The notes under the pieces were generated by a model. That model ran no database searches, was not told the origin of the DNA, and saw nothing but the letters and a program-made list of their open reading frames with translations. A DNA stretch of 59,801 bases from an uncultured Desulfatibacillum sp. (lineage in GTDB: Bacteria > Desulfobacterota > Desulfobacteria > Desulfobacterales > SpSt-501): NCBI GenBank assembly GCA_964570965.1, contig CAZNAX010000004.1, forward strand, positions 1-59,801, in the 5' to 3' direction. Shown here one piece after another: positions 2,858 to 43,943 of this stretch. Within the stretch, counting starts at the first letter, position 1, and every line of letters starts with the position of its first letter. Both the position numbers and the translations under genes were made by a program.

Positions 2858-5209
2858 ATGAGTTTTCAACTTGGCCCCAGACGCGGCGTCTTCATCGATA
2901 TCGGACAGGAAAATCGGCAACGGCCGCTAGCTGCAGATGACTTGGCCTATTTTGAGCAACTCGACCTGATGTATCGTTCGCTGTGCGCCATGCTGTACAA
3001 TTATGTTCCGATGTCCGGGCATCCCGGCGGTTCGATTTCTTCGGGCAGACTGGTGGCCGGGATCGTCTTCGACATGTTGGACTACGATCCCTCCCATCCG
3101 GATCGGGAAGACGCCGATATCGTATCCTACGGGGCGGGGCACAAGACCCTCGGTCTTTATGCCATGTGGGCGCTGCGCAATGAAGTGATGCGCCTCGGAG
3201 CGCCCGAGCTTCTCCCTGTGGATGAAAAACACCAGCTGCGACTGGAGGACCTGCTCGGCTTCCGGCGCAATTCACTGGCGAAGACCCCGCTTTTCCTCAA
3301 ATTCCGGACCAAGGCGTTGGACGGGCATCCGACCCCGGCCACCCCGTTTCTGCGGCTGGCCACCGGAGCGTCGGGGGTCGGGGTTGCGGCATCGCTCGGC
3401 CTGGCCTTCGGCGCGATGGATTATTACGGCGGCAATGCGCCGCGCGTTCATATCGTCGAAGGGGAGGGCGGGATGACGCCCGGCAGAGTCGGCGAAGCCA
3501 TGGCCGCCGCCGGGACGGCCTGTCTCAAGAACGCGATCCTGCATGTCGACTGGAATCAGGCCTCCATCGATTCCAACCGGGTTTGCCGGGACGGGGACTC
3601 CCCGGGTGAATACGTCCAGTGGAACCCGGTCGAATTCGCCCTGCTGCACGACTGGAACGCCATTCTGGTCCCGGACGGCATGAATTTCGAACAAGTCATC
3701 GCCGCCCAGCGGCGGGCCGGGGCCATGTCCAATGACCAGCCCACCGCCATCGTCTATCGCACCCATAAAGGCTGGCAGTACGGCATCGAGGGCCGTGCGT
3801 CGCACGGCGCCGGCCACGGCCTGTGCGCCGATGGTTTTTTCAAGGCGGTCGCACCCTTCATTACATCGACCGGAGCAACCCTGCCGCGCTGCGAAAGCGC
3901 CAACCAGCGCTGCCGGACCGGCCGATCTCCGGAAATTCTCGAAGAATGCTTCTGGGAGGCCTTGACGGTGATCCGCAGCGCCCTCGAAAAGAACCATTCC
4001 TTGGTGGCAGCGCTGGCGCAGCGGCTGCGCGATGCGCGGCGCCGGCTGGAAGACCGGTCCCGCCGCCCCCGCCCGCAGGCTCCGGCGGTTGAGGCTGTTT
4101 TCGATCTGGCCGCAGCAACCAAGATCCGCATACCGCCCGAGCTGACCCTGACACCGGGCCAGCCGGCCACCCTGAGAGGCGAGCTCGGCCGCGTCCTTCA
4201 GTATTATAATCTTGCCAGCCGGGGTGCCGTGCTGACGGCATCCGCCGACTTGTACGGTTCCACCAGCGTCAACACCATCGGCCAGGGTTTTGCGCAAGGC
4301 TGGTACAACGCCGCCTCGAATCCGAATTCGCGGATGCTGGTAACCGGTGGGATTTGCGAAGACGCCATGAGCGGCATTCTGGCCGGTATTTCAACATACG
4401 GGCGTCATCTGGGGGTAGGGTCTTCCTACGGCGCCTTCCTTGCCGGTCTCGGGCATGTCGCCGCCCGCCTGCACGCCATCGGCAATCAGGCCCGGCAGGC
4501 GGTCTTCCAGGAACCGTACCGGCCCTTTGTCCTGGTGTGTGCACACGCGGGCGTCAAGACCGGCGAGGACGGCCCTACGCACGCCGATCCCCAGGCCCTG
4601 CAACTCCTCCAGGGAAACTTTCCCCTCGGCACCATGATCACGCTCACGCCCTGGGACCCCCAGGAGATCTGGACCCTCATGTCGGTTGCCTTGGCTCAGC
4701 GCCCGGCGGTGATCGCGCCCTTTGTCACCCGGCCTTCGGAAACGGTGCTGGATCGGCAGGCGTTGGGGCTGGCACCGGCCACTGCCGCGGCCACGGGCGT
4801 GTATCTCCTGCGCCGGGCGGAAGGGAAACGCGACGGCTCGCTGGTGCTTCAGGGCAGTGATGTCGGCTATGCTTTCATTGAGCAAACGCTGCCGCTTCTC
4901 AAGGCCAATGGTATCGATCTGGATGTGTTCTATGTCGCCAGCGCGGAGCTTTTCGATCTCCTGCCTTCCGCGGAACGGGAAACGATCTATCCCGAGGCAT
5001 CCGCCCAGGAGGCCATGGGGATCACCGGGTTCACGCTTCCGACCATGGAGCGCTGGGTCTGCTCCGGTCGCGGCCGGCAAATGACCCTGCACCCGTTCCG
5101 CAAAGGTCATTTCCTCGGTAGCGGCCAGGCCGACCAGGTGCTGGCGGAGGCCGGGCTGGACGGGGAGAGCCAGTATCAGGCCATTCGACGCTATCTGGAG
5201 GAGGCTTAA
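2858..5209 (+). CDS. Divergent transketolase-like ThDP-dependent enzyme
   Basis: SGHPGGSIS, GHK, DGHP, GEG..WN (GDG..N variant), GICEDAM, GEDGPTH motifs; 783 aa. Confidence 0.75.
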   Translation: MSFQLGPRRGVFIDIGQENRQRPLAADDLAYFEQLDLMYRSLCAMLYNYVPMSGHPGGSISSGRLVAGIVFDMLDYDPSHPDREDADIVSYGAGHKTLGLYAMWALRNEVMRLGAPELLPVDEKHQLRLEDLLGFRRNSLAKTPLFLKFRTKALDGHPTPATPFLRLATGASGVGVAASLGLAFGAMDYYGGNAPRVHIVEGEGGMTPGRVGEAMAAAGTACLKNAILHVDWNQASIDSNRVCRDGDSPGEYVQWNPVEFALLHDWNAILVPDGMNFEQVIAAQRRAGAMSNDQPTAIVYRTHKGWQYGIEGRASHGAGHGLCADGFFKAVAPFITSTGATLPRCESANQRCRTGRSPEILEECFWEALTVIRSALEKNHSLVAALAQRLRDARRRLEDRSRRPRPQAPAVEAVFDLAAATKIRIPPELTLTPGQPATLRGELGRVLQYYNLASRGAVLTASADLYGSTSVNTIGQGFAQGWYNAASNPNSRMLVTGGICEDAMSGILAGISTYGRHLGVGSSYGAFLAGLGHVAARLHAIGNQARQAVFQEPYRPFVLVCAHAGVKTGEDGPTHADPQALQLLQGNFPLGTMITLTPWDPQEIWTLMSVALAQRPAVIAPFVTRPSETVLDRQALGLAPATAAATGVYLLRRAEGKRDGSLVLQGSDVGYAFIEQTLPLLKANGIDLDVFYVASAELFDLLPSAERETIYPEASAQEAMGITGFTLPTMERWVCSGRGRQMTLHPFRKGHFLGSGQADQVLAEAGLDGESQYQAIRRYLEEA

Positions 5210-6284: not shown

Positions 6285-6466
6285 CTCCCCCGGCCTGCAG
6301 GCGGGAAATCCGGCTGCAGACGTCAGGCCTTGTTTCATTATAGCGGCAAATCCTAATTTTATAGCGCATTTCACCGCTGCCTCCAATTCAAATAATTATG
6401 GATAGTCAGCGTGCGCGATCCCCAAGGAACCCCTGCGAGCATCTGAGCGTACATTCGAATAGAGAT

Positions 6467-6482
6467 CGGTATGTAACTTGCA
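6467..6482 (+). promoter_or_regulatory. Candidate sigma54 (-24/-12) promoter for pilus ATPase operon
   Basis: CGGTATG-TAAC-TTGCA, exact GG-N10-GC spacing, about 95 nt upstream of ATG 6578. Confidence 0.5.
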
Positions 6483-6577
6483 TGGACCCGGGAGGGATTG
6501 AACGCACCTCCTCTCGGCATGATGCCGGCGGCTGGGGTGCCATCTTCTTCTTTCGAATCAAGCGGATGAGGGGGTCT

Positions 6578-8230
6578 ATGAAAAAACGCATAGGCGATAT
6601 TCTGATGGAGATGGGTTTTCTCGGCCAGGACCAGCTCAATATGGCCTTGATGGAGACCCAGAAGACGGGCATCATGCTCGGTGACGTCTTGCGCCGGCTG
6701 GACTGGGTCACCGAGGAAGACCTGCAGATGGCCATTGCCGTTCAAAGCGGTGCCCAAATCCTGGATACCGAAAAAGTGGCTGTCGATCCCAGTCTGGCTT
6801 CGAAAATTCCGATCGAAGTCGTCAACGAACACGGCATGTTACCATTTGCGATAGAGGACGGTACTCTCAACGTCGCCTGCAGCAACCCCTTCGATGTGAT
6901 TGCCCGCGACAAACTGGAGCGCCTGACCGGCTGCCGAGTCAAAACCTTTATCGCCCGCCGATCCTGGATCGCCGGTGCGACCGACCTCTATTACAAGACG
7001 GCCCAGAACATCGACCAGGAGATCGAAGCGATCACGTATTCCGGCAACGGTCAAAACGTCTTCAAGGACGACCAGATTGTGACGCTGTCCGATTTGCTGA
7101 TCGAAAAGGGAAACGTGCTCGGCGCCAGCGATATTCATGTCGTGCCGGACAGCAATCTGGTGCGCATCTATTATCGGATCGACGGGGTTCTTCACCAGAA
7201 GCATCTGTTCGCCCGAGCCTTCCTGCAACCGCTGCTCACCCGTTACAAAATCATGGCGGACATGGATATCTCCAATCCGAACATCCCCCACGACGGTCGC
7301 ATCCGGTACAAGGGCCGCGTGGGGGAATTCGACATCCGGGTGTCCACTTTTCCCACCCAGCTGGGGGAAACCGTCGTGATGCGGCTTCTGATCCACAATA
7401 AGCTGGCCAAGGATTTGAGGGATCTGGGGTTTGAAAACGAAGATCTGATGCGGTTTAAAGCCGCTATCCATCGGCCTCACGGCCTGATTCTGACGACCGG
7501 CCCGACCGGATCCGGCAAGACCACCACGTTGTATTGCGCCCTGATGACGGTGAACAGCCCCAGCATCAACTGCATGACCGTTGAAGATCCCATCGAATAC
7601 GGCATTCCGACCGTTCGGCAGACCGCTGTCAACCCCAAGGCCGGGTTGACGTTCGGCAATGCTTTGCGCTCGGCCCTGCGGCAAGACCCGGATGTCATTC
7701 TCGTGGGGGAGATCCGCGACAGGGAAACCGCGGATTTGGCGTTGCAGGCCTCATTGACCGGCCATCTCGTATTCTCCACGCTGCACACCAATGATGCGGC
7801 CGCGGCGATTAACCGCCTGCTCGACATCGGGGTGAACGCCGGAATTCTCGCCTCGGCCCTGTCGCTGGTCGTCGCCCAACGCCTGGTGAGGCTGCTGTGT
7901 CCCCAATGCATGCTTCGCCGGCCGATCCAAACGGAGGTTCTAAAACTGTTTCAAGACAGAGAGCTATCGCCGCCCACGGAGAGCGCTCATCCGGCCGGCT
8001 GCGACAGCTGCTACCACTCAGGCTATCGCGGGCGCAACGGCGTCTATGAGGTCATTCAGATCGACCGTGCGATCGCCGGCCTTATTTTCTCCGGAGCGCT
8101 GAACCAGGATATCAAAGATGCCGCCGTTCGGGCCGGCACCCATTTGATGTTCAAACAGGCCTTAAAAAAAGTGGCCCAACAGGTGACTTCGATTGAAGAA
8201 GTTTCCCGGGTGATCGCCGACCATGAGTAG
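6578..8230 (+). CDS. GspE/PilB/MshE-family pilus assembly ATPase with N-terminal MshEN domain
   Basis: RIGDIL..MG.L...QL..AL, Walker A GPTGSGKTT, EDPIE, LRQDPDVILVGEIRD, TGH..STLH, CPQC..CDSC zinc motif. Confidence 0.92.
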   Translation: MKKRIGDILMEMGFLGQDQLNMALMETQKTGIMLGDVLRRLDWVTEEDLQMAIAVQSGAQILDTEKVAVDPSLASKIPIEVVNEHGMLPFAIEDGTLNVACSNPFDVIARDKLERLTGCRVKTFIARRSWIAGATDLYYKTAQNIDQEIEAITYSGNGQNVFKDDQIVTLSDLLIEKGNVLGASDIHVVPDSNLVRIYYRIDGVLHQKHLFARAFLQPLLTRYKIMADMDISNPNIPHDGRIRYKGRVGEFDIRVSTFPTQLGETVVMRLLIHNKLAKDLRDLGFENEDLMRFKAAIHRPHGLILTTGPTGSGKTTTLYCALMTVNSPSINCMTVEDPIEYGIPTVRQTAVNPKAGLTFGNALRSALRQDPDVILVGEIRDRETADLALQASLTGHLVFSTLHTNDAAAAINRLLDIGVNAGILASALSLVVAQRLVRLLCPQCMLRRPIQTEVLKLFQDRELSPPTESAHPAGCDSCYHSGYRGRNGVYEVIQIDRAIAGLIFSGALNQDIKDAAVRAGTHLMFKQALKKVAQQVTSIEEVSRVIADHE

Positions 8231-9440
8231 CTACCATTACAAAGCCATCGACGACTCCGGTCGTGTGGTGAAGGGCCACGTGGCCGCGTTCAACGAGGCG
8301 GATGTCGAGCAGGAATTGAAGCGGCGCGGGCTTTTCCTGATTGAGAGCACGGCGCGCAGTGAAAGCCTGGGATCCAAATGGCTCAGCCGCCGGCGCATCC
8401 GGTCCAAGATGCTGATCGAGTTCTACCACCGGTTCGCCCAGACGCTTGAAATCGGACTGCCCATTTTATCCAGCCTGGAGGAAATCGGGCGTTCGCTGCC
8501 CTGCCGGGTATTAAAAGGCGTGGTCGGTGAAGTGCAGTTTGCCGTTGAAGCCGGCAGCAGCCTGCAGGAAGCCATGCACCGCTATCCCTGGGCGTTTCAA
8601 CCGCTCGATCTGGCGATGATCAGCATGGGCGAAAAGAGCGGGGTCCTGCCGAAGTGCCTCAGGGACTTGGCGACCTATCATGAGTGGAAGGCCGAAATTC
8701 GCGCGGTTTTCAAGAAAGCCTTGCTGTACCCGGCGTTCATCGGCTGCGCGATTGCCGCCGTGATCGGCGTGTGGATCGGCTACGTTTTGCCGCAGATGGT
8801 CAAGGTGTTGTCGGAATTGGGTGTGGCTCTGCCTTGGGTGACGACCCTCCTTCTGGACGCGAGCACTTTTTTAAAGGCTGAATGGATGTGGCTGGCCAGC
8901 GGCATGCTGCTTGGCGGCAGCGCTTTTTATCTCTATCAACGCACGGATTCCGGGCGACTGGCGGTTCACCGCCGCCTATTGGCGTTACCGGTCATCGGGG
9001 GCATCGTTCGCAATATGGCCCTCACACGCCTCTGTCATAATTTTGCCACCATGCTCGCCGCTGGCATGACGATCAACAGCATTTTTCAGACCTTGTCCCG
9101 TCGAGCCATGGGCAATCGCTATCTGGAAGAACGATTGGCTGCAGCACACCAAGAGATCGAACGGGGCGAGTCGATTGCAGGGGGCCTTGAGAAGGCGGGC
9201 GGCTTCCCGTCGCTTCTGCTGGGAGCCATCCGTAACGGCGAAACCACCGGAACGATCGATGCATCGTTCAAACGCATGGGCGAACATTATGATCGCGAGG
9301 TCAAGCGCACCATGCAGGTGCTGGTCAATGGCATTGAACCGGTCGCTATTTTTGCCCTTGGCGGAGTTTTCGGAATCATCGTGCTGTCGATCATGCTGCC
9401 GCTATATGACGTGATGGGTGATTTGGGCAAGGCCTACTGA
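8223..9440 (+). CDS. GspF/PilC/MshG-family inner membrane platform protein
   Basis: Two T2SSF repeats (GEKSG.L, LLYP, GETTG.ID, IEPVAI..LGG), three TM segments; overlaps ATPase stop. Confidence 0.92.
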   Translation: MSSYHYKAIDDSGRVVKGHVAAFNEADVEQELKRRGLFLIESTARSESLGSKWLSRRRIRSKMLIEFYHRFAQTLEIGLPILSSLEEIGRSLPCRVLKGVVGEVQFAVEAGSSLQEAMHRYPWAFQPLDLAMISMGEKSGVLPKCLRDLATYHEWKAEIRAVFKKALLYPAFIGCAIAAVIGVWIGYVLPQMVKVLSELGVALPWVTTLLLDASTFLKAEWMWLASGMLLGGSAFYLYQRTDSGRLAVHRRLLALPVIGGIVRNMALTRLCHNFATMLAAGMTINSIFQTLSRRAMGNRYLEERLAAAHQEIERGESIAGGLEKAGGFPSLLLGAIRNGETTGTIDASFKRMGEHYDREVKRTMQVLVNGIEPVAIFALGGVFGIIVLSIMLPLYDVMGDLGKAY

Positions 9441-9461: not shown

Positions 9462-10346
9462 TTAGGGAAGGGTGATCGTGACGCCCCGGCCGGCGAGCGC
9501 GATGGGCGTGGGTGGATTCGAAGCGACCGGCGTGGCGCAACCGCCGGAGCCGCTGCAGAGCACTAAACGACTGCCGGAAAGAACGCTGTAAACGCTGGAG
9601 CTGCCGGTCGCCTGGCTCCCCAGATCCGACCCCTGGTTGGCATCGTAGACATATACGGTCGAGCCGCTGTGGTTGTTGACCGCCAGGGATAGATACTCGC
9701 AAAGGCAGCTGTAAAGCTCGTTGCCGCCCACATAGACGACCAGGTCGTCAAACCCGGCCACCGGAGGATGGCGAAGGTAGTTCGGGGTTCCATCCGTGTT
9801 GTCGCCTTGGTGGGTCCCGGCCGCCAGATCGTCAAAAACATTGCCGTCGCCATCGGCGTCCATGGGGCCGGCGCTGGCCAGGATCGCTGCAATCGGGAAC
9901 GTTGCCGCTGCCCCGTCGGCATCCACCACTTGAGGCGTTCCGGTCAACCCCGTGCGCAACGCGGAGCAAGCCGATGCGCGATTGGTCCCCAAGTTCGGGT
10001 TGAGCGCGTAACGCAGGGGTCTTTTATAGGCATCGGTCGGGGCGGTCACCAAGGTCCGGTAGGGCAGGGTGCCGCTGACCACCCCGCTGTTTTCAAGGCC
10101 GTCGCCGTCGCTGTCCGCATACGGCAGCCGTCCCGTCCGCTCGGCAAAGACGAGCAGGTTTGTGTGAGTGTCTTTCAGGTAGGACAGGGCTTCCGTACGG
10201 GCCTTGCGCTCGGTCAGCACGCGCATCAACGAGACGCCGCCGCCGGCCAGAATACCGATGATGACCATGACGACGGCGATTTCAATCAGCGTGAATCCGC
10301 GCAGATCCCCGCGAACCCTGGGACCGATCCTGATAGGCGCTTTCAT
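9462..10346 (-). CDS. Type IV prepilin-like protein (minor pilin/pseudopilin)
   Basis: Class III signal LRG|FTLIE with Glu5, hydrophobic helix, GRLPYAD..G.LPY..L..D motif. Confidence 0.88.
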   Translation of the reverse strand: MKAPIRIGPRVRGDLRGFTLIEIAVVMVIIGILAGGGVSLMRVLTERKARTEALSYLKDTHTNLLVFAERTGRLPYADSDGDGLENSGVVSGTLPYRTLVTAPTDAYKRPLRYALNPNLGTNRASACSALRTGLTGTPQVVDADGAAATFPIAAILASAGPMDADGDGNVFDDLAAGTHQGDNTDGTPNYLRHPPVAGFDDLVVYVGGNELYSCLCEYLSLAVNNHSGSTVYVYDANQGSDLGSQATGSSSVYSVLSGSRLVLCSGSGGCATPVASNPPTPIALAGRGVTITLP

Positions 10347-10387: not shown

Positions 10388-10969
10388 TCAGAAAAGCATG
10401 TAAAAAGTGGCCAGGTTGGTTCCATTCGTATAGGCCGCGCTGCCGGAAATCGACCCGGTCTGCCAGTTGCCGTCATCGTATTTGGTGTCAATTTCGAGGC
10501 AGACATCGGCCGGAAGGTTGTAGAACAGAAGATAGTGGGTCAGTGGGGTGGCGTTTCCCGGAGGGTTGACCCATTGGACCTCAACCGTATCTCCAAACGG
10601 ATGCGTGGGCGCGTTGGTTCCGTTGAAGGTCCCGGAGATCAATCCGGCCAGGCTCAGATCGCGAAAAACTTCGAAGCGTTCGGCAGCTTCGATCTGGCCG
10701 TTCCCGTTACCCTCCGCATCAGCGCCGTTGGGCGGGATGGGCGCCAGGTTTTCATCGCCGGGATAAACGCCATATTTGTCATAAAACGTCATGACCCCTG
10801 CACGCAATTCGTCGGCCAGCTTGACGACGCGCTTGACCTTGGCGTTCTGCACCATGGCCTGACCCTTCAGAACGCCGCCGATCAGCAGCCCAATGATCAC
10901 CAGAACGATAGCGATTTCAACCAGGGTAAACCCCGCCTGGTCCTTTCGAATTTTTCTGATCGTAGCCAT
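10388..10969 (-). CDS. Type IV prepilin (probable major pilin)
   Basis: QAG|FTLVEIAIVLVIIGLLIGGVLKGQ; three tandem ATGs (10975/10972/10969), last best spaced from SD AAAGGA. Confidence 0.88.
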   Translation of the reverse strand: MATIRKIRKDQAGFTLVEIAIVLVIIGLLIGGVLKGQAMVQNAKVKRVVKLADELRAGVMTFYDKYGVYPGDENLAPIPPNGADAEGNGNGQIEAAERFEVFRDLSLAGLISGTFNGTNAPTHPFGDTVEVQWVNPPGNATPLTHYLLFYNLPADVCLEIDTKYDDGNWQTGSISGSAAYTNGTNLATFYMLF

Positions 10970-11017
10970 CATCATGTTCCTTTCACGCTCTAAATGAATT
11001 GCCTTGGTACAAAATCC

Positions 11018-11045
11018 TTATCGGCCGACCCAGCGAAAAACTTTA
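11018..11045 (-). promoter_or_regulatory. Candidate sigma28 (FliA) promoter upstream of pilin
   Basis: TAAAGTTT-N12-GCCGATAA; both boxes match consensus, spacer 1 nt longer than the E. coli canon. Confidence 0.65.
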
Positions 11046-11083: not shown

Positions 11084-12598
11084 TCAACTGGTTTCTTTGA
11101 TGTAGGGTGTGATCAGGATGACCAGTTCAACGTTTTCTTCGGATGTTTCGATATGTTTGAACAGCCTTCCAAGAAACGGCAGATCCGCCAGCAGCGGCAA
11201 TCCCTCATGGTTGAGTTTGCGAAGCTTGCTGATTAAGCCGGCCAGCACCACGGATTGGCCGCCTCGCACCCGGACCGTGGTGGCCAGTTCCTGCAGATCG
11301 ATGACCGGATTGGAAATCGTCTGAGGGGCGCCCGCGCCCGAGGTCGGGATCTCCAGGACGACTTCACGTTGGATACGGGTCAGAGTGGGCACGATGTTCA
11401 TCGTCACCAGGCCGTCGCTTGAAATCAGGGGAGTGATCCCCAGTTGCAGGCCCAGGAGGGCTCTTTTGATCGAGGTACCGATGGTGACGACCCCGGTCTC
11501 GAGATCGCGATCCACCCCATCGATGTCGGTGTAAGGAAACTGGGAGCCGACCGTCAGCACGGCGGACTGCCGGTTGATCACCGAAATGTGGGGGTTGGCG
11601 AGGACGGCCACATCCCCTTGGGTGCGCAAGAAGTCCAGTACGGCTGAAAAACGGGACGTGTTGCTTTTCGCGATTTGCCCATCGCTGTTGAATTCCAGCG
11701 TGAAAATATCCGGCAGGAGGGACGAGCCGGAGGTGAAATCCACGTTGAGTTTGGTCCAGTCGATGCCGGTCTTTTGGTCGTCCTTTAAAATGACTTCCAT
11801 GATTTTGGCCTCGATAAAGACCTGCCGATGCAGCGATTCGCTCAGCGAATCCAGAAAACGCACCATCGCGGCGATCCGGCTCGGGGTGTCCGCCATGTAG
11901 ATCACGCCCGAGTTGCGATTGATGCGCAGGATGGCATCCGGCGATTTGAGACCCTCCAGCGCCTCGCCCAGCGCTCCCCACAGGTCCGAGCTTTGCTCGG
12001 GTTTTTTGGCCTTGACCTGATACTTCCCGGCGACACTCGTGCTGTTCACGCCGGACGCCAGCAAATCCCCGCCCACTTCGATATTGGTTTCACCGGTAAG
12101 ATCCAGATGATCGAGGTGATAAATCTTTTCCGCAAAGCGCTGAATATGCAGGGCGCCTTCACTGATACGCCATGCATAGCCGGCGCCGTTGACGACCATC
12201 ATGTCCAGCGCCTGGTTTAATGTCACCTTGTTGAGGCGCACGGTAATGCTGCGGGTCAGATCGATGTCGGCATCGACGATCAGGTTGTAATCGGAATCCT
12301 TCGTCAGCGCCGCCAAGGCCTCGCCGAGCGAGGCCTTTTGAAAGGTGATGGAGTAGAGCCGGGCGGACGGTTCAAGCTGCTGTTCGACCGGTAGCGGTTT
12401 CTCCTGAAGCGGCGCCGGCCTGGGAACCCGGAGGCGTTTCTCTTTTTCCAGGTCGCGCGCGGGCTGTTGCGCCTTGAGATCCTCTTGCACCACCGGACGG
12501 GGAGCCGGCAGGACGCATGCGCTGAGGACCAGTGTCAATCCGCAAAAGAGGAGCAGACGATGAATCCATAGTGATAGGGTCATTGCGTTTCGCATCAT
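11084..12598 (-). CDS. MshL-like lipoprotein secretin (GspD/PilQ family)
   Basis: Lipobox LSAC, STN-like domain, QVFIEAKIMEV, GLQLGITP, VVLAGLI, LPFLGRLF, ELVILITP. Confidence 0.9.
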   Translation of the reverse strand: MMRNAMTLSLWIHRLLLFCGLTLVLSACVLPAPRPVVQEDLKAQQPARDLEKEKRLRVPRPAPLQEKPLPVEQQLEPSARLYSITFQKASLGEALAALTKDSDYNLIVDADIDLTRSITVRLNKVTLNQALDMMVVNGAGYAWRISEGALHIQRFAEKIYHLDHLDLTGETNIEVGGDLLASGVNSTSVAGKYQVKAKKPEQSSDLWGALGEALEGLKSPDAILRINRNSGVIYMADTPSRIAAMVRFLDSLSESLHRQVFIEAKIMEVILKDDQKTGIDWTKLNVDFTSGSSLLPDIFTLEFNSDGQIAKSNTSRFSAVLDFLRTQGDVAVLANPHISVINRQSAVLTVGSQFPYTDIDGVDRDLETGVVTIGTSIKRALLGLQLGITPLISSDGLVTMNIVPTLTRIQREVVLEIPTSGAGAPQTISNPVIDLQELATTVRVRGGQSVVLAGLISKLRKLNHEGLPLLADLPFLGRLFKHIETSEENVELVILITPYIKETS

Positions 12599-12616: not shown

Positions 12617-13147
12617 TTAAGGCTTTTGGCTGATGGAATAGTAGACCTCCGGCGCCGGGATAAACCAGCGCTGGTCCCGCTGGCGCAGCACAACTCCTTG
12701 CGAGGATATCTCCTCGATGCGGCGTTCGGCGATGAATTCCTTTTCCGCATATACGGTTCCATCCAATACCGCGCGGTAATGCCCTGCACCCGTGCCGGTG
12801 GCCACCCGCAGGATACCCGTGAGCCGGGGAAGCAGCGCTGTGCCGGGCGGCGTATTTATTTCGTCGACACCGGCCGGAAGGGCGGGGGACGGAAGAGCGG
12901 TGGGTTGCTGCAGCCGGACCCAGGCGATCGGCGGTTCCAGAAATGGTTCGGAACCCATTCGCCGCGCGGACATGAGTTCATCGAAGTGGGAAAGGCGGAG
13001 TCGCAGCTGATTTACGATGGCCGGGCTTGCGGCCAGGGGTTGAAACTCGAGCCGGCTGAGCTTGAAAAGATTGGCTCCCAGCAAGATAAAGGCCGCCACC
13101 AGCCATGCGCCGATATACATTCGCCGGTTGTTCGCAACGATTCTCAT
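12617..13147 (-). CDS. MshK/PilP/GspC-like pilus assembly protein
   Basis: N-terminal TM, Pro-rich linker, beta domain LTGIL..AVLDG..IEEISSQGVVL; position directly before secretin. Confidence 0.55.
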   Translation of the reverse strand: MRIVANNRRMYIGAWLVAAFILLGANLFKLSRLEFQPLAASPAIVNQLRLRLSHFDELMSARRMGSEPFLEPPIAWVRLQQPTALPSPALPAGVDEINTPPGTALLPRLTGILRVATGTGAGHYRAVLDGTVYAEKEFIAERRIEEISSQGVVLRQRDQRWFIPAPEVYYSISQKP

Positions 13148-13160
13148 GATGAATCCGCCG

Positions 13161-13715
13161 TTAAAGAGCGGAGCGAGCCATCGGCTCGTTCGGCTTTGAT
13201 TCGTTCAGCGCGTCCGGGTGAATTCGGCAACGCAGCAACAGGGCCAGTTCGCAGGTGCCTGTCCCCTTTTTAGGATCGAATTTGAGGGTTATCTGCTTCT
13301 GGTGCAGGAAGCGCTGCGGGGTAAGGGCCGTTAAAAAATGGACGATTCTTTCGATGGGTCCGGAAAAAGACAAGTTCAGCGATAGCCTTTCAGATCCCTT
13401 TTGGGGCGGTGCCAGCGTCATCTGGCTCATGTTGAGCTCCAGCCGGGATGCCAGCTCGCCTATAATGCTTTTGGCGGTCAGCATGCCCAGCTGAACCGAT
13501 TCGGCCGCAATAAACAATTTCGCATGCTCTTCCTGGATGCGAGCCAGCTTGCGGGCGTTTTGCTGCTGGAAGATCAACTCTCTGCGCAATGCCTGGTTTT
13601 GAGCTTGGATGGATAATATGGTGTCGATCGCTTGGTGATTCCAAAAGGCACTAAACAGCGCGCCAGCCCAGATGACACCCGTCCACAGCCATCGGTTCTT
13701 GAGCAAAGCAGTCAT
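13161..13715 (-). CDS. MshJ/PilO/GspM-like alignment protein
   Basis: N-terminal TM, coiled coil, ferredoxin-like LSLNLSFSGP..IVHFL; ATGA overlap with upstream gene. Confidence 0.55.
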   Translation of the reverse strand: MTALLKNRWLWTGVIWAGALFSAFWNHQAIDTILSIQAQNQALRRELIFQQQNARKLARIQEEHAKLFIAAESVQLGMLTAKSIIGELASRLELNMSQMTLAPPQKGSERLSLNLSFSGPIERIVHFLTALTPQRFLHQKQITLKFDPKKGTGTCELALLLRCRIHPDALNESKPNEPMARSAL

Positions 13716-15085
13716 GGCAGGTTGATCTTCCAAGCAATCTTGTAGTGCGTTTGAACGGTTTGGCTTTTCGCCTCCTCCAGATTGAAAACCACGTCTTCAA
13801 TCGTAAGCGGCGGATCCAATTTGAGGTGTCGATTCATATTTTCAATCAGCGCTCTCAACCGATTCCGGAACTGGTCGACCGAATCTGCGGCTACGGTTGC
13901 GGCCAGGTCCAGACGCAATGCATCCGAATCCATTTTAAACTCGTCGATCAAGACCTCTTCCGGAAGCGCGGAAACAATTTTTAAAATCGTATCAGCACCG
14001 GAAGGTCGTTTGGCGTCTTCGGTCAGCTCGATCAGGGCCGCATCGTAGTCCGCGAGCGCCAGGGGCTGTTGGTAGCGCATTTGGCTGCGGGCTCCCATTT
14101 CGTCCTGCAGCCGTCGCTCCAGCCACAGATACTCTCCGATAAAAAAAAGAAACAGCAAGGCGGCGACCAGCATGCCCGCCCACTGAACCGGACGCCATTT
14201 CACCTCCTGTTGGATTCTGCGGTGGGTGACGCTGTAAGCATCGCCTGGCGCCGGAACATCCCCTGGTTCCAACAGATCTTCGAGATGCGCCAGTTCGCGC
14301 GGCAGAGCACTTGTTGCGCCGGTCCCGGCGATCCTCTGCACCGGCCGGCCCAAAAACTCGGACAGCCGCTGCTGGAATCCCGCAGCATCTCCGATCAGAT
14401 AAATCATGTTCAAATCGGATTTGGCTTTCTGAGAAAAAAGGTAGATCGACTGGTTGACCTCGAAGAGCAACGCGTCCCACCGCTCGGCAGACTCCGCTAG
14501 CGCCACCGCGCGCGAAAACAGAAAGTTTCCGTGAAAGTAAAAATAGAGAAACGCTTCATGCGGGTGAAGATGGATCAGCAAAGCTGCCTGGGTCGAGAAT
14601 TCGGTGCCCCGGCGCTTGAAACGCTCCTCCCACAGCAGCGCCGCGGTAGTGATCCAGCGCGGCGGTAGACCGGTTTTGCACAGAGCCTCATAAAGGCCAA
14701 AGGAACTTGGTTCGAAGAGGTGAAAGACTCTGACACCGGCGCCTTCCAAGTCTCTTTGCTGAAAGAGATAGCTGGAAAGATAGGGGGCCAACGGGAGGTG
14801 GGGGTAGGTGGTCTTAAGTTTTCGCTCGATGAACGGCTTGATCAAAGAATCTCTTTTGGACTTAAACGAAAAAAATTCATGCTTAAACCAGTGATCCGGA
14901 ACAATTAGAAGTATTTCAGAACGGGTTTGTTGGAAAGTTGATAACATCCGGGAATCGAACTCATGCGACACAAATTGCGGCAGGCTCAGTTCGACCCATC
15001 CGAAATCTCGATTCAGGCCGCAGGTCTCCGAGAAGAATATTTTCTTATCGGTGGCGGCAATCAGGCGATTTTTTTTATGGAACAT
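13712..15085 (-). CDS. MshI/GspL-like (PilM-PilN fusion type) assembly protein
   Basis: Cytoplasmic actin-like region (AFLYFYFHGNFLFSR, LLFEVNQSI.LF), TM near residue 305, periplasmic PilN-like tail. Confidence 0.6.
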   Translation of the reverse strand: MFHKKNRLIAATDKKIFFSETCGLNRDFGWVELSLPQFVSHEFDSRMLSTFQQTRSEILLIVPDHWFKHEFFSFKSKRDSLIKPFIERKLKTTYPHLPLAPYLSSYLFQQRDLEGAGVRVFHLFEPSSFGLYEALCKTGLPPRWITTAALLWEERFKRRGTEFSTQAALLIHLHPHEAFLYFYFHGNFLFSRAVALAESAERWDALLFEVNQSIYLFSQKAKSDLNMIYLIGDAAGFQQRLSEFLGRPVQRIAGTGATSALPRELAHLEDLLEPGDVPAPGDAYSVTHRRIQQEVKWRPVQWAGMLVAALLFLFFIGEYLWLERRLQDEMGARSQMRYQQPLALADYDAALIELTEDAKRPSGADTILKIVSALPEEVLIDEFKMDSDALRLDLAATVAADSVDQFRNRLRALIENMNRHLKLDPPLTIEDVVFNLEEAKSQTVQTHYKIAWKINLP

Positions 15086-15147
15086 CCCGGGTCGCTTTTC
15101 TGACGATCTGCTAAAAATGGATTATTTGAGCATGGTAAACTATCCAG

Positions 15148-15162
15148 GCAAAAATTATGCCA
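15148..15162 (-). promoter_or_regulatory. Candidate sigma54 promoter for mshI-J-K-L-like operon
   Basis: TGGCATA-ATTT-TTGC, near-consensus -24/-12, about 62 nt upstream of ATG 15085, AT-rich upstream DNA. Confidence 0.65.
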
Positions 15163-15367: not shown

Positions 15368-17245
15368 TTAGGTTGCAATGGCGGCTCGAACGACGTTCGA
15401 CAGTTCGGCCAGCTGGTAGGGCTTTTGGAGAAAACCGTCGGTATGTCGGAGCAAGTTCCCGCTTTCGACATGTGCCAGACTGTATCCGCTGGACAGGATG
15501 ACCTTGGTCGCGGGATGGTTTTTCCGGATGATTCCGAGCAACTGGTCCGCCCCGATGTCGGGCATCACCATATCCATGATCACCATGTCGATCTTGCTCG
15601 TATGCGGATGGAACCTGTCGGAGGCCTCCTGACCGGAACGGGCTACGATGACGGCGTAACCCAAGCGTTCCAGCATTTTGGTAACCGTTACGAGAACCAC
15701 TTCCTCATCGTCGATCACCATCACCGTTGCAATTGGCGGCGTCGCCGGCTGGGGAGCTTGCGCTCGATAACAACAGCATTTATTTCGGCCCGTATTCTTG
15801 GCTTCGTACAGCGCCTCATCGGCCTTTTTGATGAGGCCTTCCACATCCACTTCGCGAGCGCTCTCCATGGCCGCGACGCCGAAGCTCATGCTCACGGCGA
15901 TGGGCTTGTCATTGTAGCGCAGCTTCAGCGACTCAACGCCCTTGCGCAACCGTTCCGCCGCTTTCATGGCGTCGCCGGGTTCGGTCATCGGCAGGATAAT
16001 GGCGAATTCTTCACCGCCGTAGCGAGCGATTTGGTCCGATTCGCGCAGCATCAGTTTGAGCTGCGCCGAGACACACCGCAGGGCATGGTCACCGGCGAGA
16101 TGTCCAAAAAAATCATTGATGGATTTGAAATGGTCGATATCGGCCATGATGATCGAGAGCGGCGTGTTGTAGCGGATCGCACGCCTCATTTCGTGTTGAA
16201 GATTCTCCAAAAAGCGGTTGTGGTTGTTTAGCTGGGTCATGCTGTCCAGGCCGAGCTGCAGCTTGATTCTTTCCAGATCCTGACTCTGGGTGTGGACCTG
16301 ATCCACGAGTTCGGTGGTCAGCTCAGCCAGCTCGTTTCGGGACGTCTCGATGATGTCGATATACTCTTTTTCGTCGACCTGGATCTCAAAGATCGGGAAA
16401 ATACCTTTTATGTCCGCCAAAATCTGCTCTGCAATCGCATACGGGTCGACTGCCGATGTCATTCCATAGGCGCTCATTGCTTTTTCGATCGGGGCGTACG
16501 CCGAGCTTGGGTGGTGATTCGCATGATTAAACAAGTCGATGTACAAAGAAGACAGGTGCAGGATCTTAGCCTGGAATTCAATATCGCCGGAGGGTTGGCT
16601 CAACCGCTCGGGGGCATGATGCGCGCCGATTGGCGCTGAAAAAGCGGGGGGCAGCCCCCAGCCATGGGTGATGTACTCGCCCACCTCCATGTGGTTGAAT
16701 TTGAGCAGCGCGCTTTCGATTTCATGCAGGGCCGTCCCGTTCGACCGGGCCTTGGCCAGCACCTCGCCGTAGGCGGCGGGCATGGATTGGGACATGATCA
16801 ACATGCCGATGTCTTGCAGCAACCCCAGAAAAAAGGCGTTTTCGCCATGCTGTTTGTTGGCTTTTTCGGTAATCAGCCGGGCTGCGACTGCTCCGATGAG
16901 AGAATCCTTCCAAAACTGGACATGATCAAAACACCCATTGGTTTTATTCGAAAAATTATTGATCAGAGAAAAACTGAGGGCGAGGTTTTTGACCGCATTC
17001 ATGCCGAGGTACATCATCGCCTGATGAACGGAGGTGATCTGATTGGACAATCCGTAAAACGACGAATTCACCACTTGCAGCACTTTTGCACTCAGCGGTG
17101 CATCGGAGGAGATGATCTCCGAAATTTCCCGAATGTTGGGTATCTCGCGGCGCATCGCCTGCAAAATTCGAATGGCCACACCCGGCAGAGTGGGAAGCTT
17201 GCCAATTTTACGCGCAATGTCTTTGAGTGACGCATGTGCCTGCAT
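15368..17245 (-). CDS. HDOD-GGDEF-REC diguanylate cyclase
   Basis: LPTLP..A, ISSDAPLSAKVLQVVNS, GLLQDIG (HDOD); DIDHFKSIND.FGH.AGD, RESD I-site, GGEEF; C-terminal REC with DD, D, SSGY, KPY. Confidence 0.92.
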   Translation of the reverse strand: MQAHASLKDIARKIGKLPTLPGVAIRILQAMRREIPNIREISEIISSDAPLSAKVLQVVNSSFYGLSNQITSVHQAMMYLGMNAVKNLALSFSLINNFSNKTNGCFDHVQFWKDSLIGAVAARLITEKANKQHGENAFFLGLLQDIGMLIMSQSMPAAYGEVLAKARSNGTALHEIESALLKFNHMEVGEYITHGWGLPPAFSAPIGAHHAPERLSQPSGDIEFQAKILHLSSLYIDLFNHANHHPSSAYAPIEKAMSAYGMTSAVDPYAIAEQILADIKGIFPIFEIQVDEKEYIDIIETSRNELAELTTELVDQVHTQSQDLERIKLQLGLDSMTQLNNHNRFLENLQHEMRRAIRYNTPLSIIMADIDHFKSINDFFGHLAGDHALRCVSAQLKLMLRESDQIARYGGEEFAIILPMTEPGDAMKAAERLRKGVESLKLRYNDKPIAVSMSFGVAAMESAREVDVEGLIKKADEALYEAKNTGRNKCCCYRAQAPQPATPPIATVMVIDDEEVVLVTVTKMLERLGYAVIVARSGQEASDRFHPHTSKIDMVIMDMVMPDIGADQLLGIIRKNHPATKVILSSGYSLAHVESGNLLRHTDGFLQKPYQLAELSNVVRAAIAT

Positions 17246-17300: not shown

Positions 17301-17328
17301 GTATCGGATGATTTGCTGAAAACCTTTA
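17301..17328 (-). promoter_or_regulatory. Weak candidate sigma28 promoter for HDOD-GGDEF-REC gene
   Basis: TAAAGGTT-N12-TCCGATAC, same spacing as the pilin promoter. Confidence 0.4.
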
Positions 17329-17525: not shown

Positions 17526-17552
17526 TCAAGATCCTATGAAACCGGCCGATAG
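17526..17552 (+). promoter_or_regulatory. Candidate sigma28 promoter for unknown gene pair
   Basis: TCAA-N15-GCCGATAG, 35 nt upstream of ATG 17588. Confidence 0.6.
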
Positions 17553-17587: not shown

Positions 17588-18922
17588 ATGACCGGTATGG
17601 AAACCGACTTCAAGACCGATTTTGAATCTCTGGAACCGAGCGACCTGAGATTCGGAGATGCCGAATCTCCGGAACCAGCCGGGCTGCCTCCCGCCGCTGC
17701 GGATTTTCCGGAACCCGCCGGAAAAACCCCCGCCAAACGCCGTCTTTTCCGCCCGGCGCTGGCCATGCTTGCCTTGGTTGGTGCGATTTCTGCCGGTGTC
17801 TGGCTGTATGCGCGCCCGCCGGGGCTGGCAGCAACCCGGGTTGCAAGCACATCTCCGTCCGAGTCGGCCATCGACGCTGCCAGCGCATCCGCCCCGGCGG
17901 CCGTTGCACCGAGCTCCGAAACAACCGAAGATTCAAGCGGTTGGGCGATCAAACTGAGAGAAGTCGATGAGGTGCGGCGCCTGCTTCACGTCAAGAAAGA
18001 TGCCATCCTGCGAGTGCAGCAGGATTACCGCTACGGCATCCTCGAACTCGAGGAAGAAACCAAGCATCTTCTGAAGCAGGCCCGCATCGATTCGCTGGTC
18101 CTCGCCCGCAAGAACAGCGAGGTCGATTTGCTGCTGCAAAACATCCAACGGCGTCAGATGTACAGTGAAGCGCTCGCTCAGCCGCTGCAGTGGATCGATG
18201 CGGCCAGCGAAGAGCTTCTATATCTGAAGCGCCGAGCGTCGATCGACCTTCTGGTGGCGGCAGTCGCGGAGGGCATCGATATGCAGCGGCATCTATACGA
18301 CATGGATCTGGCCCTGCAAAAGTTCCAGCCGACCGCGAGCCGGCTTGCAATCCATCCAGGGCCGATGACCGCAGCATCCCTGGACGTCATTGCCAAGCGG
18401 CTGATTGAACAATCCAAGCTCATGCAAGTGGTACCCGGCGACGACCGTAATCGGGAGATCGTGGCGGAGGTTTGCAGCGGAAACCTGACGGCGGCGGGAG
18501 AGTTGTCGAGGCTCAGCCTCAAGGGCGCCCGCTGCTTGGCGGAATCCGATGCGAAGCAACTGTTTCTGAATCGTGTGACGGAGCTGACTCCGCTCGCCGC
18601 ACAGAAGCTCTCGGAATGGCCGGGCGAATGGCTCTGCTTGAACGGCCTTGCCAAGCTCCAGGCGGATGTCGCCGCACACCTTTTTGCATGGCAGGGCGCC
18701 TGGATTTCTTTGAACGGGCTCGGCGAGCTATCGGTCGAAGCGGGCCAACACGTGGCCGGATGGAACGGCCGGCAATTGGAACTCATGGGGCTGCACAGCC
18801 CATTCAGTGCGGAGCACCTAATGCGGTGGGAGGCTGCCGGAGGCCGCTTGTTCGTTCCGGACACCCTCCGCCGCGCCATCGACCTTGCGGTCGGAAAAGC
18901 CCCTGGGAATTCGGACTCATGA
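17588..18922 (+). CDS. Hypothetical membrane-anchored protein: TM, coiled coil, 24-aa LRR-like repeats
   Basis: Acidic Pro-rich N-terminus, TM ALAMLALVGAISAGVWLY, repeats of L..L....A..L..W.G.WL.LNG. Confidence 0.75.
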   Translation: MTGMETDFKTDFESLEPSDLRFGDAESPEPAGLPPAAADFPEPAGKTPAKRRLFRPALAMLALVGAISAGVWLYARPPGLAATRVASTSPSESAIDAASASAPAAVAPSSETTEDSSGWAIKLREVDEVRRLLHVKKDAILRVQQDYRYGILELEEETKHLLKQARIDSLVLARKNSEVDLLLQNIQRRQMYSEALAQPLQWIDAASEELLYLKRRASIDLLVAAVAEGIDMQRHLYDMDLALQKFQPTASRLAIHPGPMTAASLDVIAKRLIEQSKLMQVVPGDDRNREIVAEVCSGNLTAAGELSRLSLKGARCLAESDAKQLFLNRVTELTPLAAQKLSEWPGEWLCLNGLAKLQADVAAHLFAWQGAWISLNGLGELSVEAGQHVAGWNGRQLELMGLHSPFSAEHLMRWEAAGGRLFVPDTLRRAIDLAVGKAPGNSDS

Positions 18923-24714: not shown

Positions 24715-24747
24715 TCGTAGCAATTTCCTGCAGACTTTCAAGCGATT

Positions 24748-26030: not shown

Positions 26031-26154
26031 AGCGGATCGCGTCAATCCTGGCTCTTAAATGCCGGTCATTGGGTTGAGCGCGGCCGGGTATGCCTTCGTC
26101 AGCAACACCGTTCGGCAGAAGAGGGCTTCCGCCATCATTCGTGGACAGAAACTC

Positions 26155-42661: not shown

Positions 42662-42715
42662 ACGCCTCGGATCCCCCCGCCAACAAGGGCGTGAGCCCGC
42701 CTGCGTGCGAACTTT

Positions 42716-43909: not shown

Positions 43910-43943
43910 TCGGTCTGCGACCTTTGAGGAGCGCCCTAAACCA

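What the first reader, a model, noticed from the sequence alone, without database searches (positions are those of the whole stretch)
10388..11045. Type IV pilin genes appear to be under the flagellar sigma factor (sigma28)
Seen: TAAAGTTT-N12-GCCGATAA in the 114-bp gap between secretin and pilin, about 50 nt upstream of the pilin start; both boxes match the FliA consensus. Known: deltaproteobacterial and pseudomonad major pilins are normally driven by sigma54/PilR. Inference: machinery is sigma54-driven while pilins are sigma28-driven, mimicking the flagellar class II/III cascade for a pilus.
Basis: partly seen in the sequence, partly recalled or inferred. Interest (0 to 1): 0.7.

Follow-up and report, generated by a model that had tools for sequence, protein, structure and literature searches.

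The report
Sigma-28 promoter upstream of pilin gene
A perfect, evolutionarily conserved match to the promoter read by the flagellar sigma factor (sigma-28) sits in front of the pilin gene of an MSHA-like pilus in an uncultured sulfate-reducer relative, so the filament subunit is probably switched on with the motility programme; this wiring was already known in actinobacteria.

Summary
TAAAGTTT-N12-GCCGATAA lies at window 11018-11045 on the minus strand. It sits in the 108-nt gap between a secretin gene and a 195-aa type IV pilin gene, and its -10 box ends 42 nt before the ATG. Chance expectation is about 0.01 per window.

The key evidence is comparative. In 21 orthologous Desulfobacterales loci, the positions T-A-A-A-G-T and C-C-G-A-T-A are near-invariant, while the 11-12 nt spacer and the flanks are scrambled. 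A sister clade carries a sigma-54 box (TGGCAT-N5-TTGCT) at the same place.

In the window's clade the machinery operon has a conserved sigma-54 box (15147-15162). Two weaker sigma-28-like boxes precede an adjacent diguanylate cyclase gene (17301-17328) and a divergent 444-aa gene (17526-17552).

Two things remain unshown: a fliA gene in the same genome, which I could not trace, and the transcription start, because the RNA data were too sparse.

The "pilus-specific cascade" idea is speculation. Sigma-28-family control of type IV pilus clusters and linked cyclase genes is already documented in Rubrobacter and Actinoplanes. This is therefore a new member of a known kind, of moderate interest.

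The parts
11018..11045 (-). Sigma-28-type promoter of the pilin operon: -35 TAAAGTTT (11038-11045), 12-nt spacer, -10 GCCGATAA (11018-11025). The predicted start is near 11010-11012 (inferred, not mapped).
   Evidence: Exact match. T/A/A/A/G/T and C/C/G/A/T/A are 18-21 of 21 conserved in orthologous loci while the spacer is not.
10388..10975 (-). Pilin gene, 195 aa. It has a prepilin leader MMMATIRKIRKDQAG|FTLVEIA, and an AAAGGAA ribosome-binding site 5 nt before the ATG.
   Evidence: Pfam N_methyl. Best solved-structure matches are Neisseria PilE type IV pilins over the N-terminal 80 residues. More than 7000 homologues found.
9462..10346 (-). Second pilin-like gene, 294 aa, 41 nt downstream of the pilin with no terminator-like site between. 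It is probably co-transcribed.
   Evidence: Pfam N_methyl. Conserved downstream of the pilin in orthologous loci. Terminator scan.
11084..12598 (-). Secretin gene, 504 aa, the last gene of the machinery operon.
   Evidence: Pfam Secretin and STN. The best NCBIfam model is MshL TIGR02519, at 197.5 bits against a cut-off of 250.2.
12617..15085 (-). Three machinery genes without firm family names: 457 aa (13712-15085), 190 aa (13161-13733, weak GspM-like) and 176 aa (12617-13147, weak T2SSB-like).
   Evidence: Synteny is conserved in orthologous loci.
15147..15162 (-). Sigma-54-type promoter TGGCATAATTTTTGCC, 61 nt upstream of the 457-aa gene.
   Evidence: It is the only conserved block in otherwise diverged upstream regions of the window and L001-L006, with GG-N10-GC invariant.
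15368..17245 (-). HDOD-GGDEF-receiver protein, 625 aa. It has a GGEEF active site and an RESD I-site, so it is a likely diguanylate cyclase.
   Evidence: Pfam and motif check.
17301..17328 (-). Weaker sigma-28-like box TAAAGGTT-N12-TCCGATAC, 56 nt upstream of the cyclase gene.
   Evidence: 3 mismatches. A box TAAAGAtTTT-N-CCGATGA is present in L001-L005 at 54-171 nt from the ATG.
17526..17552 (+). Third sigma-28-like box TCAAGATC-N11-GCCGATAG, 36 nt upstream of the divergent 444-aa gene (17588-18922; no family hit).
   Evidence: Conserved in L001 and L003, close relatives only, so this is weak evidence.
6398..9440 (+). Convergent pair. The extension ATPase (6398-8230) has an MshE-type c-di-GMP-binding N-terminus; the platform protein is GspF/PilC-like (8223-9440).
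   Evidence: Pfam T2SSE, MshEN and T2SSF. NCBIfam NF053729 c-di-GMP motif at 50.3 bits against a cut-off of 38.

Best explanation
The box is a working promoter for RNA polymerase carrying a sigma-28-family factor (FliA/SigD/WhiG type). It transcribes the pilin gene and, most likely, the pilin-like gene behind it.

The assembly machinery is a 457-aa, a 190-aa and a 176-aa protein plus the secretin. In this clade it is transcribed separately from a sigma-54 promoter. Machine and filament subunit therefore answer to different sigma factors.

Two weaker sigma-28-like boxes precede the neighbouring diguanylate cyclase gene and a divergent gene of unknown function. The pilus ATPase carries the MshE-type c-di-GMP-binding motif. 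The likely logic is that the same sigma factor raises both subunit supply and the c-di-GMP signal that lets the ATPase extend the pilus.

The most probable sigma factor is the flagellar FliA. The pilus would then be a late product of the motile-cell programme, an attachment organelle of swimming cells.

Shown:
- the motif and its significance;
- its position-specific conservation across diverged orthologues;
- the conserved sigma-54 box;
- the protein domains.

Inferred:
- that the boxes are used;
- the transcription start;
- co-transcription of the second gene;
- the identity of the sigma factor;
- the cyclase-to-ATPase link.
For: 1. Perfect 16/16 match, with 0.01 expected by chance.
2. Phylogenetic footprint. 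In 21 loci whose secretins are only about 50-90% identical, counts are T21 A18 A21 A21 G21 T19 and C20 C21 G21 A21 T20 A20. Spacer columns are unconstrained, and the distance to the ATG varies from 41 to 118 nt.
3. The core motif occurs 25 times in 504 kb against 2.2 expected. Twenty-two of these are at pilus-locus promoter positions.
4. Sigma-28 and sigma-54 boxes are mutually exclusive at the same site in different clades of the secretin tree. This is expected if the site is the promoter.
5. In the Desulfosarcina-labelled clade a second sigma-28 box, TAAACTTC-N11-GCCGATAA, precedes the machinery operon in 8 of 8 loci.
6. All three window hits with at most one core mismatch are intergenic, correctly oriented and lie in the pilus neighbourhood.
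7. No sigma-70-like or sigma-54-like site lies in the gap, and no Rfam element.
8. FliA/WhiG-family sigma genes exist in Desulfobacterales, inside flhA-flhF-flhG-fliA flagellar clusters. One such genome has 60% G+C, like the window.
9. The window itself carries a FlhB-like gene that is 54-60% identical to the one in those flagellar clusters, next to a Flg_hook-domain gene.
10. Precedent: the same consensus marks pilus-cluster and cyclase promoters in Rubrobacter, with mapped starts, and in Actinoplanes (PMC8325347; PMC12871210).
Against: - No sigma-28 gene could be tied to any genome that carries this locus. At least one Desulfobacterales isolate lacks FliA altogether (Desulfotignum, PMC4046663).
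- The one metatranscriptome fragment on the region (10780-11032, 98% identical) extends about 22 nt upstream of the predicted start. Some RNA, or contaminating DNA, therefore crosses the -10 box. No strong terminator separates the secretin from the pilin, so read-through from the sigma-54 operon is possible.
- The spacer is 12, not the canonical 11.
- The cyclase box has a weaker -10 (TCCGATAC, or CCGATGA in relatives).
- The third box is conserved only among close relatives.
Confidence: 0.7

Rival explanations
1. The box is read by a sigma-28-family factor that is not tied to flagella. It would be a dedicated or retained paralogue that runs the pilus and c-di-GMP genes. That is how WhiG works in non-flagellated Rubrobacter, where a c-di-GMP-armed anti-sigma controls it.
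For: - Sigma-28 boxes sit before both pilus genes and a linked cyclase gene, the same pairing as in Rubrobacter (PMC8325347; window).
- No flagellar cluster or fliA could be linked to these genomes.
- The only flagellar-type genes in the window sit oddly inside the recBCD operon.
Against: - The Desulfobacterales FliA genes recovered all lie in ordinary flagellar clusters.
- No anti-sigma or sigma gene lies near the pilus locus in about 40 loci.
Confidence: 0.2
2. The pilin is made mainly from read-through transcripts of the sigma-54 machinery operon. The sigma-28 box would then be a minor, conditional or decaying internal promoter.
For: - No convincing terminator lies between the secretin and the pilin.
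- An RNA-library fragment spans the -10 box.
- A related fragment lies in the machinery operon at 12657-12936.
Against: - Near-invariance of 12 promoter positions across clades, with a free spacer, is hard to explain for an unused site.
- Major pilins are needed in far greater amounts than machinery proteins, so an internal promoter is expected (general knowledge).
- The RNA fragments are single, sparse molecules that cannot be told from DNA carry-over.
Confidence: 0.15
3. The conserved blocks are not a sigma-28 promoter. They would be a chance match, a sigma-70 promoter using TAAAGT as its -10 box, or the site of an unrelated DNA-binding protein.
For: - TAAAGT has 4 of 6 matches to TATAAT.
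- The RNA fragment ends near 11033-11035, about where such a promoter would start transcription.
Against: - There is no acceptable -35 or TGn element upstream.
- G at position 5 of the upstream block is invariant in 21 of 21 loci, which a sigma-70 -10 box would not require.
- This model leaves the invariant CCGATA unexplained.
- Fragment ends in that library are ends of single molecules, not mapped starts.
Confidence: 0.05

Closest known systems
WhiG (sigma-28 family) regulon of Rubrobacter radiotolerans / R. xylanophilus (PMC8325347)
   Same: [quoted passage not shown] One of those genes is linked to the pilus cluster.
   Different: That case is an actinobacterium without flagella or an outer-membrane secretin. 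[quoted passage not shown] Here the organism is a Desulfobacterales member and the pilus is MSHA-like with a secretin. The machinery is under sigma-54 in this clade, and no anti-sigma factor or mapped start is known.
Actinoplanes missouriensis zoospore pili and flagella under FliA-family sigma factors (cited in PMC8325347 and PMC12871210; PMC13083903)
   Same: A motile cell type makes flagella and type IV pili from the same class of promoter. This is the biological logic proposed here.
   Different: Actinoplanes has three FliA paralogues and a developmental regulator, TcrA. It is Gram-positive, and the evidence there is experimental.
Sigma-54/PilR-dependent major pilin promoters (Geobacter pilA, PMC2725144; Pseudomonas and Myxococcus pilA from general knowledge)
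   Same: The promoter sits in the same place, directly upstream of the pilin. A sister clade of this very locus carries TGGCAT-N5-TTGCT there.
   Different: In the window and 20 other loci the sigma-54 element is replaced by a sigma-28 element.
Two-tier flagellar hierarchy with sigma-54 above sigma-28 (Vibrio, Campylobacter, Geobacter; PMC2725144)
   Same: The structural machine is under sigma-54 and the filament subunit under sigma-28.
   Different: That hierarchy depends on export of the anti-sigma FlgM through the finished basal body. Nothing here shows any checkpoint linked to the pilus machine, and other clades of the locus use one sigma factor for both operons.
Vibrio cholerae MSHA pilus (PMC7098655; PMC4624772 seen by title and abstract only)
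   Same: The ATPase has the MshE-type c-di-GMP-binding N-terminus, and the secretin is closest to MshL. In V. cholerae the pilus cooperates functionally with the flagellum during surface attachment.
   Different: Gene order and content differ. MshM- and MshN-like genes are absent from the window, though present in L041. I found no report that FliA transcribes mshA.
Synechocystis SigF and pilA1 (own knowledge, not checked here)
   Same: A group-3 alternative sigma factor is needed for transcription of the major pilin in a non-flagellated bacterium.
   Different: The promoter consensus and the sigma subgroup are different.

Membership tests
Sigma-28 (FliA/SigD/WhiG) dependent promoter | -35 element TAAA(GTTT) | tested here: met
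   TAAAGTTT at 11038-11045, an 8/8 match. T-A-A-A-G-T is 18-21 of 21 conserved in orthologues.
Sigma-28 (FliA/SigD/WhiG) dependent promoter | -10 element GCCGATAA | tested here: met
   GCCGATAA at 11018-11025, an 8/8 match. C-C-G-A-T-A is 20-21 of 21 conserved.
Sigma-28 (FliA/SigD/WhiG) dependent promoter | Fixed spacing (canonically 11 nt between the 8-mers, i.e. TAAA-N15-GCCGATAA) | tested here: inconclusive
   The window has 12. Among orthologues, 16 have 12 and 5 have 11; all 8 machinery boxes have 11. That +1 is tolerated is my own knowledge, not tested here.
Sigma-28 (FliA/SigD/WhiG) dependent promoter | Lies in an intergenic region within about 200 nt upstream of a gene, on its strand | tested here: met
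   The -10 box ends 42 nt before the pilin ATG; in orthologues the distance is 41-118 nt.
Sigma-28 (FliA/SigD/WhiG) dependent promoter | Transcription start a few nt downstream of the -10 element | tested here: inconclusive
   Only sparse metatranscriptome contigs exist. One fragment covers 10780-11032 and crosses the box.
Sigma-28 (FliA/SigD/WhiG) dependent promoter | A sigma-28-family gene in the same genome | tested here: inconclusive
   None in the window or in about 40 pilus loci. The family is present in Desulfobacterales, but none could be traced to a genome with the locus.
Sigma-28 (FliA/SigD/WhiG) dependent promoter | Expression depends on the sigma factor | not testable with these tools
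   This needs in vitro transcription or a mutant or reporter experiment.
Sigma-54 dependent promoter (machinery operon) | GG-N10-GC with a TGGCAC-N5-TTGCW context, conserved in orthologues | tested here: met
   TGGCATAATTTTTGCC at 15147-15162. It is not significant on its own (23 such hits against 29 expected). However, it is the only conserved block upstream of the operon in 7 loci.
Sigma-54 dependent promoter (machinery operon) | An enhancer-binding activator available | tested here: inconclusive
   No Sigma54_activat-domain gene was found among the window ORFs scanned. The activator could be encoded elsewhere.
MSHA-type type IV pilus | Extension ATPase with an MshE-type c-di-GMP-binding N-terminal domain | tested here: met
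   Pfam MshEN, 2.6e-16. NCBIfam NF053729 scores above its cut-off.
MSHA-type type IV pilus | MshL-type secretin | tested here: inconclusive
   TIGR02519 is the best model, but at 197.5 bits it is below the 250.2 cut-off.
MSHA-type type IV pilus | MshM (AAA) and MshN (TPR) accessory genes | tested here: not met
   Absent next to the ATPase in the window, where AzlC lies upstream. An AAA_16/22 and TPR gene pair is present in the related locus L041.
Type IV pilin | Prepilin leader ending in G, then F-x-x-x-E and a hydrophobic helix | tested here: met
   ...DQAG|FTLVEIAIVLVIIGLL. Pfam N_methyl and TIGR02532. PDB matches to PilE.
Late (class III/IV) flagellar regulon member | Co-regulation with flagellin, motor and chemotaxis genes through FliA and FlgM | not testable with these tools

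The most novel reading that the evidence does not exclude
The pilus may have its own two-step, assembly-coupled hierarchy. Sigma-54 would build the machine. Sigma-28 would then be released, either by export of an anti-sigma factor through the pilus machine or by a c-di-GMP-dependent anti-sigma fed by the adjacent cyclase. Once free, it would turn on the pilin and the cyclase. This would be a pilus counterpart of the flagellar FlgM checkpoint, evolved in Desulfobacterales.
Probability: 0.07. Interest if true: 0.85.

Novelty: new member of a known kind. Interest (0 to 1): 0.4.

Why it matters
If the promoter works as predicted, widespread uncultured sulfate-reducer relatives in sediments and wetlands couple an adhesive MSHA-like pilus, and a c-di-GMP-making enzyme, to the sigma factor of the motility programme.

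It would extend a wiring so far documented in actinobacteria to a Gram-negative phylum. The set of loci also forms a clean natural experiment. The same pilin gene carries a sigma-28 promoter in some clades and a sigma-54 promoter in others, and the machinery operon switches independently. That is useful for studying how promoters are swapped during evolution.

It changes no general principle.

Tried and rejected
1. Tracing fliA to a genome that carries the locus did not succeed.
- tblastn of a remembered E. coli FliA against all pilus loci found nothing.
- Genome scans used a bait alignment, a deltaproteobacterial FliA and a seven-sequence alignment.
- Protein searches seeded with Desulfobacterales FliAs listed only the best 120.
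- Look-ups of four hits gave unrelated records.
- A metagenome scan gave no usable link.

2. Transcription start. One wetland metatranscriptome holds a few isolated 150-280-nt contigs on the window. They are too sparse, and carry no strand information, so no start can be called.

3. Riboswitch or other known RNA in the leaders: no Rfam match.

4. A sigma-70 promoter in the gap: none by the consensus scan.

5. A sigma-54 box before the window's pilin: none.

6. Literature search for FliA control of MSHA or other pilins in Proteobacteria found no direct report. Kimura et al. 2019 is not held in the library.

Full report
**What is there**

The finding covers a minus-strand pilin gene (10388-10975, 195 aa) and the gap upstream of it. 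Read on the minus strand, the gap holds TAAAGTTT-TTCGCTGGGTCG-GCCGATAA at 11045->11018.

The gap between the secretin stop and the pilin ATG is 108 nt. The -10 box ends 42 nt before the ATG, and an AAAGGAA ribosome-binding site lies 5 nt before the ATG.

By shuffling, 0.01 such matches are expected in the window. Allowing up to 3 mismatches, 0.13 are expected and 2 are found.

**The locus**

The window has 60% G+C. On the minus strand lies an operon of four genes:
- a 457-aa gene (13712-15085);
- a 190-aa gene (13161-13733);
- a 176-aa gene (12617-13147);
- a 504-aa secretin gene (11084-12598).

These are followed by the pilin gene and a 294-aa pilin-like gene (9462-10346). Convergent to them on the plus strand are an ATPase gene (6398-8230) and a platform-protein gene (8223-9440).

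- The ATPase has the MshEN domain and passes NCBI's MshE-type c-di-GMP-motif model.
- The secretin's best model is MshL, but below the cut-off.
- The pilin has a standard prepilin leader and matches Neisseria PilE over its N-terminal 80 residues.

The system is therefore an MSHA-like type IV filament system, not a classical PilA pilus. Upstream of the machinery operon lies an HDOD-GGDEF-receiver gene (15368-17245) with an intact GGEEF motif and an RESD I-site.

**Comparative test of the box**

A scan with the secretin gave 40 loci, nearly all Desulfobacterales metagenome-assembled genomes labelled Desulfatibacillum, Desulfosarcina or unnamed. One complete 5.66-Mb contig was added.

The secretin-pilin gap carries the box in 21 loci (the window included). 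Their secretins are only about 50-90% identical to the window's. Position counts are T21 A18 A21 A21 G21 T19 for the upstream block and C20 C21 G21 A21 T20 A20 for the downstream block. The spacer columns show no preference, the spacer is 11 or 12 nt, and the distance to the ATG ranges from 41 to 118 nt.

This pattern is what selection on a sigma-28 promoter predicts. It does not fit a leader RNA or a translational signal. Rfam finds nothing there, and the sigma-70 scan finds nothing in the gap.

Across 504 kb (window plus loci), the core TAAA-N15-17-CCGATA occurs 25 times against 2.2 +/- 1.4 in shuffles. Twenty-two of the 25 are at pilus-locus promoter positions.

**Promoter swapping between clades**

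- Ten other orthologous loci carry TGGCAT-N5-TTGCT, a sigma-54 promoter with 1-2 mismatches, in the same gap and no sigma-28 box.
- Five loci carry neither. Four of these have CAAACAC-type repeats in the gap.
- On a neighbour-joining tree of the secretins the types are clade-specific. At least two switches are needed to explain the distribution.

For the machinery operon:
- The window and L001-L006 share TGGCAY-N5-TTGCC 61-74 nt (12 nt in L006) before the start codon. It is the only conserved block in diverged upstream regions. The match alone is not significant in the window, so the conservation carries the argument.
- In the Desulfosarcina-labelled clade the machinery operon instead has TAAACTTC-N11-GCCGATAA in 8 of 8 loci. 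It lies only 1-13 nt before the ATG, so that mRNA would be nearly leaderless.

Three configurations therefore exist: sigma-54 machine with sigma-28 pilin (the window), sigma-28 with sigma-28, and sigma-54 with sigma-54.

**More sigma-28-like boxes in the window**

Allowing one core mismatch, the window has exactly three hits. All are intergenic, all are correctly oriented, and all lie in the pilus neighbourhood:
- the pilin box;
- TAAAGGTT-N12-TCCGATAC at 17301-17328, which is 56 nt before the cyclase gene;
- TCAAGATC-N11-GCCGATAG at 17526-17552, which is 36 nt before a divergent 444-aa gene without family hits.

The cyclase box is present in L001-L005 as TAAAGAtTTT-N-CCGATGA, at distances of 54-171 nt from the ATG. 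The third box is conserved only in two close relatives, so it counts for little.

**Is there a sigma-28 factor?**

This is the weakest point. No sigma gene lies in the window or in the pilus loci. I used all four genome scans, all three protein searches and the single metagenome scan.

These searches recovered a large FliA/WhiG family in Desulfobacterales. Named examples include Desulfoluna, Desulfobacter and Desulfatiferula. The genes always sat in flhA-flhF-flhG-fliA flagellar clusters, one of them in a genome region of 60% G+C. None could be assigned to a genome that holds the pilus locus.

Indirect hints come from the window itself:
- A 91-aa FlhB-like protein (30554-30829) is 54-60% identical to the one in those flagellar clusters.
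- Next to it lies a Flg_hook-domain protein (29400-30557).
- Oddly, this pair sits between recC and recB.

One Desulfobacterales isolate is reported to lack FliA (PMC4046663), so presence cannot be assumed.

**RNA evidence**

One wetland metatranscriptome has a 256-nt contig on 10780-11032 (98% identical). It has no contig over most of the secretin gene. A wider look shows only a handful of isolated 150-280-nt contigs across 20 kb. These are single molecules of unknown strand that cannot be told from DNA carry-over.

The fragment crosses the -10 box. Read-through from the machinery operon is therefore possible, and no strong terminator separates the two genes. The start site remains untested.

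**How it most likely works**

A sigma-28-family holoenzyme starts transcription near 11010 and makes the pilin and probably the 294-aa pilin-like protein. The machine is made separately under sigma-54 and an unknown activator.

The same sigma factor probably raises the adjacent cyclase. Its c-di-GMP would activate the MshE-type ATPase, as shown for V. cholerae MshE (PMC7098655; PMC8325347).

In Geobacter the fliA operon is itself under sigma-54 (PMC2725144). The pilin would therefore come on late in the motility programme. I rate a functional sigma-28-type promoter at about 0.7. Within that, the flagellar FliA is more likely than a flagellum-independent paralogue.

**Comparison with what is known**

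But sigma-28-family control of type IV pili is not new.
- In Rubrobacter, promoters matching TAAA/GCCGATAA, with mapped starts, lie in the pilus cluster and before cyclase/phosphodiesterase genes. One of those genes is linked to the pilus cluster.
- In Actinoplanes, both flagella and zoospore pili use FliA-family factors (PMC8325347; PMC12871210; PMC13083903).

The present case repeats that pairing of pilus and cyclase in a Gram-negative phylum, with an MSHA-like machine. It adds the split sigma-54/sigma-28 control and the clade-wise promoter swaps. I found no report of it in Proteobacteria or Desulfobacterota.

**Verdict**

It is a new member of a known kind, with interest of about 0.4.

Noticed in passing
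window 26059-36262 (+): The recC, recB and recD genes are interrupted. Between recC and recB sit two translationally coupled genes: a 385-aa protein with a Flg_hook (FliK-like) domain (29400-30557) and a 91-aa FlhB-C-terminus-like protein (30554-30829). The 91-aa protein is 54-60% identical to the gene found in Desulfobacterales flagellar clusters (L286, L287). This is an odd place for flagellar-type genes.
   Followed up: partly
window 17526-17552 (+) and 17588-18922 (+): A third sigma-28-like box (TCAAGATC-N11-GCCGATAG) precedes a 444-aa gene with a membrane helix and a coiled coil but no family hit. The box and the gene are conserved in L001 and L003. A metatranscriptome contig lies on 17610-17857.
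   Followed up: partly
L021, L024-L031, about 3400-3500 in each locus: In the Desulfosarcina-labelled clade the sigma-28 box of the machinery operon ends only 1-13 nt before the ATG. That mRNA would be leaderless or nearly so.
   Followed up: no
L017, L018, L033, L034, between secretin and pilin: Instead of a recognisable promoter, these loci carry long runs of CAAACAC/CCAAACA-type short repeats before the pilin gene. This could be a length-variable (phase-variable) control region.
   Followed up: no
window 42053-44288 (+): A small Ras/MglA-like GTPase, a DUF4388 plus cyclic-nucleotide-binding protein, and a PilZ-domain protein lie in a row. This looks like a motility or polarity and c-di-GMP signalling module.
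   Followed up: no
window 11015: In several metagenomes this base is polymorphic (T>C and T>G on the plus strand). It lies between the -10 box and the predicted start, and assemblies break there.
   Followed up: no
L041 9834-10001: The complete-genome relative has TAAAGTTT-N12-GCCGAAAA (one -10 mismatch). It also has a second, isolated GCCGATAA about 15 nt before the ribosome-binding site, with no TAAA partner.
   Followed up: no
L006: This locus is labelled 'uncultured Desulfatibacillum sp.' but has 71% G+C against 55-60% for its neighbours in the tree. The label or the bin may be unreliable.
   Followed up: no
window 23953-25548 (-): An FHA-domain protein lies next to a PP2C phosphatase, a Ser/Thr phospho-signalling pair. 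It is unrelated to the finding.
   Followed up: no
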